The notes beneath the pieces are model-generated. The model worked only from the letters and a program-made list of their open reading frames with translations. It did no database searches and was not told the origin of the DNA. This document shows, piece by piece, positions 5,025 to 19,609 of a stretch of 64,000 nt of DNA; position 1 is the first letter of the stretch, and each line of letters opens with the position of its first letter. The DNA comes from Mustelus asterias (taxonomy: Eukaryota): contig NC_135825.1 of the NCBI RefSeq assembly GCF_964213995.1, positions 24,118,001 to 24,182,000 of the forward strand, in the 5' to 3' direction. Made by a program: the position numbers and the translations under genes.

Positions 5025-5320
5025 TTTTTTAAGTTTATTTATGAGTGTCACAAGTAGGCTTACATGAACACTGCAATGAAGTTACTGTGAAAATCCCCTA
5101 GTCGCTACACTCTGGCACCTGTTCGGGTACACAGAGGGAGAATTTACCATGGCCAATGCATCTAATCAGCACATCTTTCAAGCCGTGGGAGGAAACCGGA
5201 GCACCCAGAGAAAACCCACACTGGGAGAATGTGCAGACTCCACACAGACAGTGACCCAAGCCGGGAATCGAACCCGGGTCCCTGGCGCTGTGAGGTAGCA
5301 GTGCTAACCACTGTGCCGCA
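5025..5320 (-). mobile_element. V-SINE variant with alternative (non-CR1) tail
   Basis: Same head and V-domain as HE1, but the 3' part reads ..ttcacagtaacttcattgcagtg..cctacttgtgac..ataaataaactt. Confidence 0.85.
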
Positions 5321-8503: not shown

Positions 8504-8661
8504 GAGGAGAATTTTCTGTGCCCCCTGCTCTGTGTTTTGCAGTGGTGGAGGTGACCCACCATTAGCCAGCAGCAGGATCTTCTGGGTTTCCCCATGGTGA
8601 GGGTGCGCCGTGAGTGGGATCGGAAGATCCCACCAACATGAACAACCAGAAAATTTCACCT
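8504..8661. mobile_element. PIF/Harbinger-type MITE
   Basis: Imperfect TIRs gaggagaattttc / gaaaatttcacct. 3-bp TSD GAT. Confidence 0.6.
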
Positions 8662-8817
8662 GATATTGCTATCTGGAACATTGTCCCAGGAATTTCACAG
8701 TGTGGTCTTTGCAAAATACATCAGTGCTGTCAATCTTTCACCTGATATTGCTATCTGGAACATTGTCCCAGGAATTTCACAATGTGGTCTTTGCAAAATA
8801 CATCAGTGCTGACAATC
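8654..8817 (+). repeat. 82-bp tandem duplication
   Basis: tttcacctgatattgct...cagtgctg(t/a)caatct starts at both 8654 and 8736. Confidence 0.95.
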
Positions 8818-9088
8818 TTACCTGCAGTGCTTCAGTGTTTATGTCCACTTTGAACTTAATGAATATCAATCACAAAAGATTTAGTTATTGGACATTCAAC
8901 TAAAAAGAGCAAATGTATCTCCTTACACTACGGAATCCTTATAATGTATTGCTTACTGATGAAATATTCCGTATATTTGGTTGATCTTCAATGGTGTTGC
9001 CGATGGTCAGAATATAATCACTCTCTTAACTCTATCTATTCCACATTACTATTTTCTGTGATTTTCCTTTTCCGCTTCTGTGACTGTT

Positions 9089-11039
9089 TGTGGTGAACCA
9101 TAGATGGTTACCACTATGGGTACTGAACCATAGATGGTTACCACTATGGGTACTTGTACATATGTTACTCTTGTTACTGTTGGGGTTAGGGTTGGGGTGT
9201 TCCACCTGTTAGCATTGTTCTGTGGTACACTCCGTTTGGCTCCGCCTTCCTATAGGAGTATAAAGGTCACTGCACTTCCTAGTGACCCTTTAGTCTGGGA
9301 TAGTATTGTTAAGCAGTGTGCTCTATTCTTGTTGCGAATAAAAGCCTTTATTTCCCGAGTACGATCTAGCCTCTCGAGTGAATTAATCGCGCATCAATTT
9401 TATTCGCAACAAATTTTGTTTTGAAAAGAAAAAATGGAGCAGATGCTGAAACCCGATCGGCTAACCTTAGATCCGCGTGCCGCTGGAGCGTCGAACACTT
9501 TCGACCATTGGTTGAAGTGTTTCCAGGATTATATCGACGCCTCAACAGCAGTCCAAAATGAAGCCGACAGATTGCGGGTCCTCCACGCAAGGGTAAGCGA
9601 CACTGTGTATGCAACAATCCGTGATTCCCAAGATTACAAACCGCCAAACGAAATCCATGCTCGTCACTTATTAGCCACTCGACGGCGGCAGCCCGGCGAA
9701 ACGACGGCACAGTACCTGCGCGAACTTCAGCAGCTAGCCAGAGCCTGCAATTGCAAGCCAGTGTCGGCTACTCAGTACACTAACGATCTGATCCGAGATG
9801 CGTTCGTGGCGGGAATCGGCTCATCCTATATCCACCTGCGGCTGTTAGAGCAAGGTAACTTGGACCTAGCTAAGACGGTAGAATTGGCTGATGCGATGGA
9901 AACAGCCTCCAGAAGTCTTGAAACTTACCCCACCGACCACGTGGGAACATCGTGGCAAGTACAGCCACCGACTCAGCTGTACCCGGCGGCTCCTAGGAAC
10001 TGCGCGATCGTGCTTTCAACCTCGGACCTGACGGCAGCGGCAGCTCCAGGAGGCCCATGGTGCTATTTCTGTGGATTGGCGAAGCACCCTCGCCAGAGAT
10101 GTCCAGCCAGGACGGTATTTTGCTCTGCTTGTGGGAAGAAAGGGCACTATGCAAAAGTGTGCCGAGCAAAGCCCCCTTTGAAGCCAAGCAGTGCTGCGTG
10201 TGACTCCCCAGGATCCGTCTCCTCGTCTCCAGCTTCGTCGATGTCTTCAACCACGTGCGATTCACGGGCGCCGCCATTCCTGATGACGACGACGCAAGAC
10301 ACGTGCGACCTGCGGGTGCCGCCACTTTCAACGCCATCGACCACGTGCGATCCATGGGCGCAGCCATTTTGGTCGGCACTGGCCGCAGATGACCAGCAGG
10401 GGTCCTCGTCGTCGACCATCTCAGCTGCCTGCAGTTGCACTCGGGATCCAACAGTGGCGTCAATCATCCTGGACCAGGCCAAGCCTCACAGACTCGACAA
10501 GTCCATGATGGACATAGAGCTTGCCTGAGTCCAGGAGATTGTCGCCACCTCGAGGTCCACCCGTGTGTGAGGAACTGGAGGAGTCACTGGACACCACCTT
10601 GGAGAGAGGGACACCACGGTCACCAGAACCGGCACTACCGCCAGTGCTGCAGAGGTCGCAGAGATGGTGCGGACCTCCGATACGACTGAACTTGTGAATA
10701 TATGGACAGTTCGTACTGTTCTTTTTGCCCCACCGGCCTTTGTTTTTAAAGGAGGGGTGAGTGTGGTGAACCATAGATAGTTATCACTATGGGTACTTGT
10801 ACATATGTTACTCTTGTTACTGTTGGGGTTCGGGTTGGGGTGTTCCACCTGTTAGCATTGTTCTGTGGTACACTCCGTTTGGCTCCGCCTTCCTGTAGGA
10901 GTATAAAGGTCACTGCACTTCCTAGTGACCCTTTAGTCTGGGATAGTATTGTTAAGCAGTGTGCTCTATTCTTGTTGCGAATAAAAGCCTTTATTTCCCG
11001 AGTACAATCTAGCCTCTCGAGTGAATTAATCGCGCATCA
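9089..11039 (+). mobile_element. Internally deleted Gypsy LTR retrotransposon (gag only) with both LTRs
   Basis: LTRs 9089-9396 and 10762-11039 (TG...CA; 5 substitutions plus one 30-bp duplication by manual comparison). 5-bp TSD CTGTT at 9084-9088 and 11040-11044. Polypurine tract aaaggaggggtgag at 10748-10761. TATAAA and AATAAA in the LTR. Confidence 0.96.
9434..10528 (+). CDS. gag: Gypsy Gag with two zinc-knuckle-like motifs, truncated at the start of protease
   Basis: 364-aa ORF with ARHLLATRRRQPGET, IRDAFVAG, CYFCGLAKHPRQRC and CSACGKKGHYAKVC. Ends LDQAKPHRLDKSMMDIE before any protease active site. Followed by an integrase C-terminal tail remnant (LQRSQR..PPIRLNL*). Confidence 0.9.
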   Translation: MEQMLKPDRLTLDPRAAGASNTFDHWLKCFQDYIDASTAVQNEADRLRVLHARVSDTVYATIRDSQDYKPPNEIHARHLLATRRRQPGETTAQYLRELQQLARACNCKPVSATQYTNDLIRDAFVAGIGSSYIHLRLLEQGNLDLAKTVELADAMETASRSLETYPTDHVGTSWQVQPPTQLYPAAPRNCAIVLSTSDLTAAAAPGGPWCYFCGLAKHPRQRCPARTVFCSACGKKGHYAKVCRAKPPLKPSSAACDSPGSVSSSPASSMSSTTCDSRAPPFLMTTTQDTCDLRVPPLSTPSTTCDPWAQPFWSALAADDQQGSSSSTISAACSCTRDPTVASIILDQAKPHRLDKSMMDIELA

Positions 11040-11857
11040 CTGTTTCCATTTTTTTTTCTGTTTCCCATCTCTTAACTCTTTTCAGTTTTCTCTCTGCCCC
11101 TTTTTGCCTCTTTCTATGTTGGAGGGGGGAGGTAGGTGGTAGTAAGGTGCAGTGTCATGGACAATCTCTGACGTGGGAAATGTGGTCCTCAGATATTCCC
11201 TCAGCATCCTCTTCCTCAGTCAAATGCTTCCCCCCACCTTGCCTCCTTCCTCTTTGCTTCCGAAGTTACTCCTTCTTTCGAACACTCCCTCACTCTCATC
11301 CTCACTACCCTTACCTTCCTCCCCTTTAAAGAAGCACTCAAACGCTAGCCTCTTGTTCAATTAACATTCATCTCACTTGACCCTCCATTCACCTCCCCGT
11401 CCATACTTACTTACTGCCCCTTGCTCTCAATGTGTCCTTTTTCCCCCTGTGCGTCTGATGCACTCTGTCTTCCACCTTTGCCTCATAGGTCTTTTAAATT
11501 AGAATCGTTGTCTCACAGGTATAATCCATTATCATTGACCTTTGCTAACTGTTAACCAAAAACAGGTAGAGAATTGAAAAACAAACTGGTTGTGAATGCT
11601 GGGTATAGGAAATACTGAAAATATGGCCAAATCAGTCAGTAACTGTTGTAAGAGTGGGCAGGTTAACACTAAGGTGCCCCTGTCCCCAGAATACAATTAG
11701 TCAGTTACAAAATTCAATAGTCATTAACAGAGTAAACATTACCTCTCCTTATAAGAGATTTTCTTTGAATGTGTGGAAGGCCACAGTATAGTATCAAAAC
11801 AATTATAATAATGTAGTTACAATTTGGAGGTTTTGTCGCATGATTGACAGTCTCTCT

Positions 11858-15792: not shown

Positions 15793-16118
15793 GGCATGGT
15801 GGCACAGTGGTTAGCACTGCTGCCTCACAGCGCCAGGGACCCGGGTTCAATTCCAACCTGAATGAATGTCTGTGTGGGGTTTGCACATTCTCCCTGTGTC
15901 CGCGTGGATTTCTTCGAGGTGCTCTGGTTTCCTTCCACAGTCCAAAGATGTGCAGGTTAGGTGAATTGGCCATGCTAAATTGCCCTTTCGTGTCAGGGGG
16001 ATCAGAAGGGTAAATACATGGGGTTATGGAGATTAGGCATGGGTGGGATTGTTGTCAGTGCAGGTTCGATGGGCTGAATGGCCTCCTTCAGCACTGTAGG
16101 GATTCTATGATTCTATGA
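15793..16118 (+). mobile_element. HE1-type V-SINE
   Basis: Full head, V-domain and gattctat tail. Further copies at about 17507-17850(+), 18590-18865(-), 19264-19606(-), 23184-23472(-), 44460-44803(+), 54700-54915(+), 59823-60140(+), 60652-60945(-). Confidence 0.92.
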
Positions 16119-18239
16119 TATGTACACAAGTGGACCCCAGCCACTATTTCATGCTGGCTGGCCAATTTATCGACAGCCAGCGTTAAATGTGTACTGAGAA
16201 AGGCTCAGCACTGCTCGGGGGGATGGTGGCAGGACGTATGATGGTGCTGAGTGAAGTGAGATTGAGGGTGGGCATTTCCAGAGAGCTTCTTGAAGGCTGA
16301 CAGCTGCTGTGAAGCTGCCTGCGGCAGCTGCAGTGCTGTATAAATGAAATGAACTCAAAGAAAGTCTGTAAACTGTGTCTACACTGCAAACTCAAGCACC
16401 TGACAGCAGACCTCATAGCACCTCAGCCTTCAAATTTCCTCTTTTATGTTACATCACCCCACACCTTTTATCCCACACTGGAACATACTTGCTGCAAAAT
16501 CGTAAAGCCCACCTGGTCGATTGGCCTGTACGGCAACCATAAAAGTGGACAGTCTACATAAAATCGCCACCAATTGTCCACTTAATTGTAGGCTTCAGAC
16601 TCCCGCTTGCGGCTGCTGACCTTAATGTTGTGCATCAGCACAATGATGCGCACTCAATATTTCCTCAGGTAATTACACACACTTCCAGGTCTGGCACGCG
16701 GCCATTCAATCAACAATCAAAATTCTGGTCTGTGATTTTGATACAACCAAAAGACTTGCCTGGTCACTTCAAAGAGTGGTTAAGTGGTCAACCACATTGA
16801 CTTAGAACTAGTTACATATAGGCAATAAAGAATGTTAAGGTGTGAATTGATTGAAGTTATCAGGATTTTGACAAGAATCGATGAGGTGGATGAAGATTTT
16901 TATTTCCTCGTCACTCCTGGAGTCTGGGATAAGGGGACATAATGTTAAAAAGTCAGAACCCAGCCACTCAGAAGAGGGGTTTTCAGCCAAAAGCTGTTAG
17001 AAGTGTGGATCGCCGTCCCACAAGAAGCAGGAGATGCTTGCTTAATTAATCATTTTAAATCTGAAATTAACACAGAAATCTGAGTTTGTAGATTACTCAA
17101 GAAAACCTTATCGCCAGAGCTCTAAAATTCAAATTCTCAAACTGCCAAACTGAGATTTGAACTCATGTTGACGAGTTTAATATTCAGGGCCTCTCGATTC
17201 CTGGCTAGTCCAGTAACACAGCTACTATTCTACTGTACCAATCTGATTAATTTGCATAGAAACAAAAAGAACAAAGAAGAAAGAAAATTACAGCACAGGA
17301 ACAGGCCCTTCGGCCCTCCAAGCCTGCACCGACCATGCTGCCCGTCTGAACTAAGACCCCGGGAACCATATCCCTCTATTCCCATCCTATTCATGTATTT
17401 GATTACTTGTTTTATTTACTTTTGTTGAGATTGCAAAACTAAGATGTAATCTCTGTTCAACTATGAACTATCATCTGGATTATCTTACTTGTATCAAGAA
17501 AACATGGGTGCCATGATGGCACAGTGGTTAGCACTGCTGCCTCACAGTGCCAGAGACTTGGGTTTGATTCCAGCCTTGGATGCCTGTCTGTGCAGAGTTT
17601 GCACATTCTCCCAGTGTTCGTGTGGTTTCCTCTGGGTGCTCAGGTATCCTCCCACAGTCCAAAGATATGCAGGTTAGGTGGATTTGTCTTGCTAAATTGC
17701 CCTTAGTGTCCCAAGATGTGTAGGTTAGGGGGATTAGTGGGATAAATATGTGGGGTTACAGGGATAGGGCCTGGTTAAGATGTTCTGTCGGAGAATCGGT
17801 GCAGACTCGAGGGGCCAAATGACCTCCTTCTGCACTGTGGAGTTTCCGTGAAGGACAGGCCTTCACTTTAGCCATTCACATTAAACAATGCACCAGCACA
17901 AAACAATCTGAACCAAGTGTTTGTTCAATCGCAGTATCCTTTATTACAAATGTGAAGAGTTCTCTTCATTTTTTCTTGCCAAGAAATAGCCACTCAGCCA
18001 AACTGGAATGGTTGCATTTGGAAATTTATAAGCAATTTATTTTTAAAAACACCAAGAATAAAAAAGAATATTCAGAAATGGTATTACCACCAACGGGGCT
18101 TCTGGAACAATGTGCACAAGTGGAACACGCTGGTGAAATGCTTCAGCAAAAACTTTTATTGGTAAGAACCAGTAACACATTGATCACATTTTTAACAAAT
18201 CATGACAATGAACTTATAAAATTATAGTGACAGATTTTG

Positions 18240-19250
18240 GGTCCCCCGATGCAGGTGAACATGGAGATACCGATTGTGGATGGTCCATTTGGATCATTGC
18301 ACGGCTCTTTGTAGCTGCATCAGCCTTTGTTCTAGTGCACTACCAATACCAAGGGTACTTTCTGCCACATGCCTTGTAGAATTGATGAAAAGCTGGGAAA
18401 TTCCTTGGTGCAGCCCACACCTGCCACAGCTCTTGCTTGGTTTGGGTGGTCTGGTGAGTGAGTCAACAATTGAGGTTGTTTTTGATACCTGTAAACTTTG
18501 TCAACCTGCGAGGATTGCTTTATACTCATATCCGTCCTTGACTGGATCTTTGATGCTATAATTTTGGGCTTGTCCAGCAGATCTTTCTGGAATCACAGAA
18601 TCCCTACAGTACAGGAGGAGGCCATTCGGCCCATCGAGTCTGTACTAACCACTATCCCACCCAGGCCCTATTCCTGTAACCACACACTAGGGCCAATTTA
18701 GCGTGACCAGTCAACCTAACCTGCACATCTTTGGATTGTGGGAGGAAACTGGAGCACCTGGAGGAAACCCACGCAGACACAGGAGGGAAAGTGCAAACTT
18801 CACACAGGCAGTGACCGAGGCCAGAATTGAACCTGAGTCCCTAGTGCTGTGGGGCAGCAGTGCTATTCCATAGGGTTGGATGTAATCACCAACTCAACAA
18901 TTCTGTCTGCTAGCTAACTGCATTTGAAAAATCACACCGCCTTTTTTCTGCATCTGCTGATGAAGTGATCTATGGATGCTGTAGCCTGTTGTCAAAATGA
19001 CATGAACACTAACCTATGAATGTGGAAGTTTAACCTGATCCTGAACCAACCTTCCAGTGCGGTCCATATCTTTTGGGGATCCTTTGGTTCTTCTACTGTT
19101 ATTCCTGACATGTTCAGGAGTGTGTACGTTCATTCCCAATTGCTATGTGAATTTTTATGGTTTTCTTGTCCAGTTCAGATGCACCTAAATTGTACACTGT
19201 TTAAACATTTTGAATTTGGATAGTAATGTCAGCTGCATCCCAATTCAAAA
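18240..19250 (-). mobile_element. Degenerate Gypsy gag, interrupted by an HE1 SINE
   Basis: Frameshifted segments KDPQKIWTALE, LNFHIHRL, SIDHFISRCRKK, ADRIVELVI, QKDLLDKPK, SCGRCGL. Confidence 0.65.
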
Positions 19251-19609
19251 TGGGGAATTTTCAATAGAATCCCTACAGTGCAGAAGGAGGCCATTCGGCC
19301 CATCAAGTCTGCACCGACTCCCTGAAAGAGCATCTTACTGAAACCAACCCCTGCCCTATTCCTTAACCTTGTACATTTACCATGCCTACTCCACCTAACC
19401 GACACATCTTTTGGTCACTAAGGAGCAAGTTAGCATGGCCAATCCACCTAACCTACACATCTTTGCACTATGGTAGGAAACAGGAGCACCCAGAGGAAAC
19501 CCACACAGACCCAGGGAGAAGGTACAAACTCCACCCAAACAGTTACCCGAGGCTGGAATTGAACCTGGGTCCCTGGCGCTGTGAGTCAGCAGTGCTAACC
19601 GTTGCACGT

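What the first reader, a model, noticed from the sequence alone, without database searches (positions are those of the whole stretch)
9329..9412. LTR element whose primer-binding position pairs with its own LTR over the polyA signal
Seen: the sequence after the 5' LTR lacks the TGG of a tRNA primer-binding site. Instead ttttattcgcaacaa (9398-9412) is the exact 15-nt reverse complement of ttgttgcgaataaaa (9329-9343) in the LTR, closing a 54-nt loop and burying AATAAA. This stem can form only at the 5' LTR. Known: Tf1/sushi chromoviruses self-prime by pairing the PBS with the transcript's 5' end. Inference: this element, whose Gag looks Mag-like and whose integrase tail shows no chromodomain, may self-prime. 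The same stem could suppress 5' LTR polyadenylation. The paired segment lies ~65 nt past TATAAA (9259-9264), so it may be internal to R rather than at the cap, unlike Tf1.
Basis: partly seen in the sequence, partly recalled or inferred. Interest (0 to 1): 0.75.

Follow-up and report, generated by a model that had tools for sequence, protein, structure and literature searches.

The report
Self-priming leader in animal Gypsy retrotransposons
This jumping gene and its relatives in sharks, rays, corals and worms carry, where a tRNA primer normally binds, a sequence that matches their own terminal repeat, and dozens of mis-copied relics in the genome indicate that they likely start copying from a roughly 52-letter piece cut off the front of their own RNA, a likely separate invention of the self-priming known from yeast Tf1.

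Summary
Confirmed and extended. The 15-bp pairing is exact, starts one base after the 5' LTR, and is a trait of a whole Gypsy lineage. Arm sequences change between families while pairing is kept (8 of 14 pairs change on both sides, 0/500 shuffles; 30 of 35 distant relatives beat all shuffles). No tRNA-type TGG occurs (0 of 58). A conserved TATA box and initiator put the predicted cap 50-75 nt before the stem end, so the stem is internal, unlike Tf1. A genome search found 68 rearranged insertions that join the LTR end to an antisense copy of the leader. In 9 of 11 snap-back products the first cDNA stops at AAAA|GCC, and 4 of 15 prematurely ended leader copies stop at the predicted cap. Best reading: a capped leader of about 52 nt is cut at the stem edge and primes reverse transcription. 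The lineage has no chromodomain and falls outside chromoviruses (one of two tree tests); markers fit Cigr-1, untested by sequence. Blocking of polyadenylation is untested and not universal. This scan earlier noted one fold-back LTR palindrome in this genome and self-priming candidates in Copia and BEL/Pao elements elsewhere.

The parts
9084..9088 (+). left target-site duplication CTGTT
9089..9396 (+). 5' LTR (TG...CA), with a 30-nt tandem duplication near its 5' end
9259..9264 (+). TATA box, 33 nt before the initiator A; spacing 30-34 nt in 53 of 58 copies
9290..9295 (+). initiator-like TTAGTC (TCAGTY in relatives); predicted cap at A9292
   Evidence: predicted, not mapped on RNA
9292..9343 (+). 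inferred self-primer: 52-nt capped leader
   Evidence: inferred
9329..9343 (+). left arm of the stem, the 3' end of the inferred primer; holds AATAAA at 9337-9342
9343..9344 (+). inferred cut site AAAA|GCC
   Evidence: inferred from where cDNA relics end
9344..9397 (+). 54-nt loop: rest of R, U5, and the 1-nt spacer A9397; template of minus strong-stop DNA; its two ends are predicted to form an inner helix
9398..9412 (+). primer-binding site, complementary to 9329-9343
9434..10528 (+). gag with two CCHC knuckles, ending past the deletion junction before the protease active site
10515..10519 (+). junction of an internal deletion of about 2.6 kb (protease, RT, RNase H, most of integrase)
10520..10697 (+). 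remnant of the integrase tail, no chromodomain
10748..10761 (+). polypurine tract and spacer
10762..11039 (+). 3' LTR, 5 differences in 273 nt from the 5' LTR
11040..11044 (+). right target-site duplication CTGTT

Best explanation
The sequence one base after the 5' LTR pairs with a 15-nt segment of the LTR in this element and across its lineage, and this stem likely serves as the priming site: the RNA, predicted to start about 52 nt upstream of the stem end, is likely cut at AAAA|GCC, and the released capped leader would prime minus-strand synthesis in place of a tRNA. Shown: complementarity, covariation, fixed register, absence of TGG, and integrated by-products in which the LTR end plus one A runs on into an antisense copy of the leader. 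Inferred: the cap site (from TATA, initiator and relic end points), the cut site (from relic end points), that the primer stays attached and is copied by RT, and that the short stretch between the cut and the poly(A) site serves as R for strand transfer. Inferred by analogy only: that the element's own RNase H makes the cut, as in Tf1. Untested: that the stem also hides the poly(A) signal in the 5' LTR.
For: Covariation: 96.7% of cells paired, 8 of 14 pairs changed on both sides, 0/500 shuffles, slid controls 43-49% (13 families of this genome). Cognate versus swapped arms: 0.98 versus 0.50 in 21 distant families, 0.97 versus 0.60 in 13 local families, 0 of 20000 permutations. 30 of 35 testable metagenome loci beat all 60 shuffles. 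In a scan not anchored on gag, 30 of 38 stems after a CA had a 1-nt spacer. TGG in 0 of 58 copies. TATA plus initiator at 30-34 nt in 53 of 58 copies. 71 junction matches against 0 for the reversed pattern; 68 of 72 loci examined are real junctions, 25 of 68 with a perfect 5-bp target duplication. Snap-back class: 9 of 11 antisense U5-R copies end in an interval that includes AAAA|GCC or the next base, three of them no further than one base on; 7 of 10 have exact duplications. Four leader copies jump into internal element sequence at intervals that include the predicted cap. RNase H catalytic motifs are present in 117-119 of 120 homologs. Tf1 precedent: RNase H cut between bases 11 and 12 (PMC7175516, passage) and primer-binding sequence copied onto cDNA ends (PMC11042837, passages).
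Against: No RNA end was mapped: only assembled contigs were available and no polyadenylated copy was found. The 27 full palindromes could also arise from a plus strand that copied the PBS and folded back, whatever the primer. The cap-ending class is small (4 of 15 internal stops, a fifth ambiguous; rough post hoc p 0.001-0.007) and two of the four junctions have 4-7 nt of microhomology. The family with a 74-nt leader gave no junction (4 hits, none with the LTR end before the arm), so the independent check of the cap failed for lack of data. The snap-back register is also favoured by an inner hairpin, so ends at +2 to +4 cannot be excluded case by case; one product ran at least 7 nt further and one folded earlier. 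Four of 35 metagenome loci showed no stem in the search box (one of them has 9 bp further upstream by eye) and one was marginal. No consistent TATA or initiator was seen in the invertebrate relatives, so primer length is supported only in this genome. Covariation among related families overstates independence.
Confidence: 0.85

Rival explanations
1. Tf1-like short primer: transcription for replication starts at the first base of the stem, so the primer is only about 15 nt and the upstream TATA and initiator serve another transcript.
For: Tf1 uses its first 11 bases (PMC7175516, passage), and Tf2 uses alternative start sites (PMC5341516, passages). No conserved upstream promoter was found in invertebrate relatives.
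Against: TATA-initiator spacing is fixed in 53 of 58 copies and lies 35-60 nt upstream of the stem. Four relics carry a 52-55-nt leader copy that stops at that initiator. The junction search required copies longer than the stem, so short-primer relics were not counted.
Confidence: 0.06
2. Tail priming: the copy of the arm in the 3' LTR of the genomic RNA pairs with the PBS, is cut after AAUAAAA, and primes, so the primer carries U3.
For: Most relics, including the snap-back class, continue through U3 to the LTR start without a visible break.
Against: The template at the 5' end would stay uncut, yet antisense U5-R copies end at AAAA|GCC and 7 other loci begin within 6 nt of it. Copies ending at the cap need a template that ends there. 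A jump from the copied leader to the identical 3' leader explains the run into U3.
Confidence: 0.05
3. The stem is a regulatory hairpin that hides the poly(A) signal (or marks RNA for packaging), and priming uses an unknown host RNA.
For: The arm ends in AATAAA or ATTAAA in 54 of 58 local copies, with a compensated AATAAA/ATTAAA switch; the hexamer is predicted fully paired in the 5' transcript.
Against: Only 10 of 21 distant families have a canonical hexamer there, and 3 others have it in the loop. The PBS changes with the LTR, which a host primer cannot follow. The 1-nt register to the LTR end is fixed. Snap-back relics show leader sequence, not host RNA, next to the start of the cDNA. The hexamer is also predicted partly paired in the 3' LTR context.
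Confidence: 0.04

Closest known systems
Tf1 and Tf2 of Schizosaccharomyces pombe, Tj1, Tosmo1-3 and the Tf1/sushi chromoviruses (PMC7175516, PMC10085805, PMC4600332, PMC5341516, PMC11042837; passages read)
   Same: PBS complementary to the element's own LTR; no tRNA; primer made by a cut at the edge of the duplex (inferred here); an inner helix between the sequence after the primer and the U5 end (predicted); primer sequence copied onto cDNA.
   Different: Stem is 12-19 bp and lies 35-60 nt inside the predicted transcript, so the primer is about 52 nt (74 in one family) and not 11; loop only 24-69 nt in most; primer often ends in the poly(A) signal; no chromodomain or GPY/F motif; RT motif mostly YXDN; animal hosts from corals to cartilaginous fish.
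Predicted self-priming in plant Tcn1 (Gypsy) and TAR/Houba/Osr-1 (Copia) lineages (PMC6317226; passages read)
   Same: Defined by the same sequence test: at least 10 bp of complementarity between the LTR and the region 0-5 bp after it; TAR shows that self-priming arose outside chromoviruses.
   Different: Plant elements of other lineages; in the passages read the mechanism is predicted only, with no mapping of primer ends.
Cigr-1 clade of Ty3/Gypsy (Ciona intestinalis; GyDB markers in PMC2774666 supplement file 3, part 2; clade in molluscs in PMC6238403, passages and supplement search)
   Same: Two CCHC knuckles, integrase after RNase H, GPY/F lost, no chromodomain, no env; listed near Mag in one table.
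   Different: No Cigr-1 sequence was available, so identity is untested; the priming of Cigr-1 is not described in what I could read.
Mag lineage (Mag, SURL, Jule; names partly recalled)
   Same: Two CCHC knuckles; nearest neighbours in both trees were rows with a Mag-type integrase tail by my reading.
   Different: Only 27-30% RT-RNase H identity to those rows and a long stem branch; Mag elements use tRNA-type sites (recalled, not checked).

Membership tests
Ty3/Gypsy LTR retrotransposons | LTRs with TG...CA ends, target duplication, polypurine tract | tested here: met
Ty3/Gypsy LTR retrotransposons | Domain order gag-protease-RT-RNase H-integrase | tested here: met
   full-length relatives; best solved match Ty3 RT; the window copy itself lacks pol
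Tf1/sushi chromoviruses | PBS complementary to the element's own 5' LTR, no tRNA site | tested here: met
Tf1/sushi chromoviruses | [quoted passage not shown] | tested here: not met
   by sequence and relics the cap is 50-75 nt before the stem end; not mapped on RNA
Tf1/sushi chromoviruses | Chromodomain and GPY/F module on integrase | tested here: not met
   0 of 30 proteins match a chromo or SH3_Tf2-1 family; GP[YF] in the last 250 aa of 1 of 120
Tf1/sushi chromoviruses | Pol phylogeny within chromoviruses | tested here: not met
   outside in both quick trees; grouping rejected with RT-RH-IN (p-AU 0.002 with two sushi-like rows, 0.025 with three chromovirus rows) but not with RT-RH alone (p-AU 0.33); chromovirus labels are mine, from Pfam and motifs; no named Tf1 or sushi row
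Tf1/sushi chromoviruses | Three-duplex 'pretzel' leader | tested here: inconclusive
   central duplex and one inner helix predicted; a third duplex was not found in that alignment
Tf1/sushi chromoviruses | Primer released by the element's RNase H | not testable with these tools
   catalytic motifs present; cut site inferred from relics
Cigr-1 clade | GyDB marker set: 2 CCHC, integrase after RNase H, GPY/F lost, no chromodomain, no env | tested here: met
   the same marker code is shared with some Osvaldo elements
Cigr-1 clade | Pol groups with Ciona Cigr-1 | not testable with these tools
   no named Cigr-1 protein among the listed hits
Mag lineage | Pol groups with Mag-type elements | tested here: inconclusive
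   sister to unnamed Mag-type rows, SH-aLRT 97 and 87; no named Mag, SURL or Jule row; one row labelled Mag was a different segment of a fused protein, so that clade test is void
tRNA-primed LTR elements | PBS starting with TGG or matching a tRNA fragment | tested here: not met
   0 of 58 with TGG; no tRNA family in Rfam scan of 9089-9460; PBS covaries with the LTR; no host tRNA set was screened directly

The most novel reading that the evidence does not exclude
A pan-animal, non-chromovirus Gypsy lineage invented self-priming independently, using a tRNA-sized capped leader whose 3' end is the poly(A) signal, so that one stem both makes the primer and keeps the 5' LTR from ending the transcript; the genome holds a fossil record that maps both ends of the primer; and this has not been described.
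Probability: 0.5. Interest if true: 0.82.

Novelty: new variant of a known kind. Interest (0 to 1): 0.72.

Why it matters
Self-priming has been shown only for yeast Tf1 and predicted for its relatives and a plant Copia lineage in the papers I could read. A widespread animal lineage outside the chromoviruses that primes with a long internal-cut leader would show that tRNA independence arose again in Gypsy elements and that the cut need not be next to the cap. Such elements would escape control by host tRNA fragments. The relics give exact predictions (cap at the initiator A, cut at AAAA|GCC) that one RNA-end experiment can test, and show a way to read a priming mechanism from a genome assembly alone. 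The long primer also explains a recurring class of head-to-head LTR palindromes.

Tried and rejected
RNA ends: no RNA holder with raw reads was listed; contigs of runs X1, X2 and X5 covered the LTR but cannot show starts or ends. Polyadenylated retrocopies: 0 matches. Junctions in the 74-nt-leader family: none, the 4 hits lacked the LTR end. More junctions in the window's own subfamily: one; a DNA search with it found no second among 40 scored of 811 candidates. IMG/VR held no relative. DUF7083 search for Mag-type reference elements found nothing; SH3_Tf2-1 hits were decayed elements with integrase before RT by my reading. Naming the clade: no named Cigr-1 protein; no YLDN in two supplements (one PDF could not be read). 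Rfam: six weak chance hits, none a tRNA. Assembly artefact as the source of the palindromes was rejected because they end at LTR termini and carry target duplications. Post-insertion inversion between the arms was rejected because it would flip only the loop and leave gag attached. Literature searches listed no paper on self-priming in this lineage; not held: Lin and Levin 1997 and 1998, Levin 1996, Atwood-Moore 2006, Simmen and Bird 2000, and a 2019 review. Repbase and Dfam notes could not be searched and may mention the complementarity. Two scripts stopped on errors; one search repeated the first, and redid the snap-back part of the second.

Full report
Observation. The two 15-mers are exact reverse complements at the stated places, around a 54-nt loop, with AATAAA at 9337-9342. 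They belong to an LTR element: 5' LTR 9089-9396, 3' LTR 10762-11039, duplication CTGTT, 5 differences in 273 nt between the LTRs. The right arm starts after a single A. None of 1000 shuffles gave such a stem. The window copy lacks about 2.6 kb of pol and cannot move by itself.

The family. The genome (3.68 Gb) holds thousands of candidates. The nearest named homologs are from rays and catsharks at 74-81% identity; others are from corals, sea anemones, whipworms and a cockroach at 53-65%. All 30 nearest loci keep the right arm; both arms are unchanged in 20 of the 29 where both were printed, and the rest have one change, five of them giving a U-G pair. Full-length copies are about 4.66 kb with one gag-pol frame, two CCHC knuckles, no chromodomain or SH3_Tf2-1 match in 30 of 30 proteins and GP[YF] near the end in 1 of 120.

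Covariation. In this genome I took 60 loci from three searches with distant gag queries, plus the window; 58 could be anchored on the LTR end and on AAAA|GCC without using pairing (some loci are repeats of each other). Positions 1-13 pair in 90-100% of copies and pairing falls to 38% or less by positions 16-17. In 13 representative families 8 of 14 pairs change on both sides, 0 of 500 shuffles reach this, and slid partners pair at 43-49%. RNAalifold found the same helix unaided, plus an inner helix between GCC and the U5 end. Among 79 metagenome loci (44-67% identity), 37 held the gag start and 35 had enough upstream DNA: 30 beat all 60 shuffles, one was marginal, four showed no stem in the search box. 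Arm sequences differ widely; cognate arms pair at 0.98 and swapped arms at 0.50 in 21 families (these arms were picked as the longest stem, so the unanchored scan is the fairer test). That scan found 38 stems of 10 bp or more after a CA, 30 with a 1-nt spacer. RCC follows the left arm in 18 of 21 families. Stems occur on most branches of the lineage tree. A PBS that changes with the LTR cannot be following a host tRNA; TGG is absent in 58 of 58.

Where the RNA starts. A TATA-like and an initiator-like motif lie 30-34 nt apart in 53 of 58 copies. The initiator A is 50-55 nt before the end of the left arm in 39 and 74-75 nt in 14. This predicts a stem inside the transcript. No such motifs were consistent in invertebrate relatives, and no RNA ends were available.

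Relics of reverse transcription. If the leader is the primer and stays on the cDNA, RT should sometimes copy it, giving LTR end + A + antisense leader. A pattern for this junction gave one hit for the window's subfamily (L192) and a broader one gave 71, against 0 for the reversed pattern. I examined all 72. Four are not junctions (one chance match, three ordinary 5' LTRs); 68 are, two of them sharing flanks. Most run antisense to the LTR's first base; 25 of 68 have a perfect 5-bp duplication by a script that tried several left ends, so they are integrase products. Three groups matter. (a) 27 are a whole LTR followed by the antisense copy. They show that the pairing primes DNA synthesis, but they do not identify the primer. 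(b) 11 begin with antisense U5-R, turn back into sense U5, cross the spacer and go on into antisense leader and U3. This is minus strong-stop DNA that folded on itself and copied its own start and what was attached to it: leader, not tRNA. In 9 of 11 the turning point lies in an interval that includes AAAA|GCC or the next base, in three no further than one base on; one ran at least 7 nt further and one turned earlier; 7 of 10 have exact duplications. Seven further loci begin within 6 nt of the same site, two exactly at it. (c) 15 antisense copies stop inside the LTR. Four of them (L215, L216, L246, L257) jump into internal element sequence at intervals that include the predicted cap, a fifth (L266) is ambiguous, and ten stop elsewhere. 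A rough post hoc chance is 0.001-0.007. These fit a plus strong-stop DNA that copied the whole 52-55-nt primer and then mis-transferred. The 74-nt family gave no junction to test.

Mechanism. Shown: pairing, register, covariation, relics. Inferred: the transcript starts at 9292; 9329-9343 pairs with 9398-9412; a cut at 9343/9344 frees a 3' end in AAAA; RT copies the spacer, U5 and the rest of R; the 15-25 nt between the cut and the poly(A) site act as R; the plus strand copies the retained primer. One spacer base plus the primer's last A would give a 2-nt extension beyond CA, as in retroviruses (recalled). Copying of the primer into the new PBS would also explain how both arms change together. 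That RNase H cuts is by analogy with Tf1 (PMC7175516, passage); its catalytic motifs are kept in 117-119 of 120 homologs. About half of Tf1 cDNA retains PBS sequence (PMC11042837, passages). The poly(A) role is secondary and untested: canonical hexamer at the arm end in 54 of 58 local copies but 10 of 21 distant families.

Placement. The lineage is a long-branched clade with full support. It sits next to unnamed Mag-type rows and apart from chromovirus-type rows in both quick trees (46 of 47 rows; 25 rows; tails read). Forcing it together with sushi-like rows was rejected with RT-RNase H-integrase (p-AU 0.002; 0.025 with three chromovirus rows) but not with RT-RNase H alone under a mixture model (p-AU 0.33). 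Labels are mine. It works like Tf1 but is not a member of the Tf1/sushi group. Its markers equal those listed for Cigr-1 (PMC2774666 supplement); this name is a lead only.

Novelty. Self-priming is described for Tf1/sushi and predicted for plant Tcn1 and TAR (PMC6317226, PMC10085805, PMC4600332, PMC5341516, PMC5006619, PMC3601003, PMC6934838; passages). Ten searches listed nothing on this lineage, but the founding Tf1 papers, the Cigr-1 paper and Repbase notes were not available, and one supplement PDF of PMC6238403 was unreadable. Earlier notes of this scan, read after my analysis, describe one fold-back LTR palindrome in this genome without a parent element and self-priming candidates in Copia and BEL/Pao elements; they are unchecked and are not counted as support. 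Verdict: a real feature and a new variant of a known mechanism; interest 0.72.

Noticed in passing
L031-L040 RT; homologs P0005-P0124: The RT motif reads YXDN in place of YXDD in 95 of 120 homologs and in young copies with near-identical LTRs, so the second catalytic aspartate is naturally asparagine in much of this lineage. A search for YLDN with retrotransposon listed no paper.
   Followed up: partly
L217, L229, L232, L242, L245, L262, L263, L267, L268, L271 and others: Head-to-head LTR palindromes with arms of 170-200 bp around a 54-nt spacer, integrated with 5-bp duplications; possible sites of genome instability or double-stranded RNA.
   Followed up: partly
L045, L046, L047, L049, L058, L078, L090 loops: A small hairpin RCC...GGY directly after the inferred cut site in many invertebrate families; in local families GCC pairs with the U5 end instead.
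   Followed up: partly
window 9094-9153: A 30-nt tandem duplication at the 5' end of the 5' LTR that the 3' LTR of this copy lacks; unit number varies between copies (three units in L192).
   Followed up: no
window 9397-9436: The gag start codon lies only 15-55 nt after the LTR across the lineage, in some families touching the PBS arm.
   Followed up: no
L180-L191: Decayed Gypsy elements with a GPY/F module followed by RT-like sequence (Gmr1-type order, name recalled).
   Followed up: no
window 8654-8817: An 82-nt tandem duplication just upstream of the element.
   Followed up: no
window 5218-5309, 15795-15987, 17512-17704, 18597-19600: Several copies of a tRNA-headed SINE typical of cartilaginous fish (name HE1 recalled).
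   Followed up: no
L060:1-118, L076, L079: Three relatives without a detectable stem before gag; the contigs may lack the LTR, or these branches may prime differently.
   Followed up: partly
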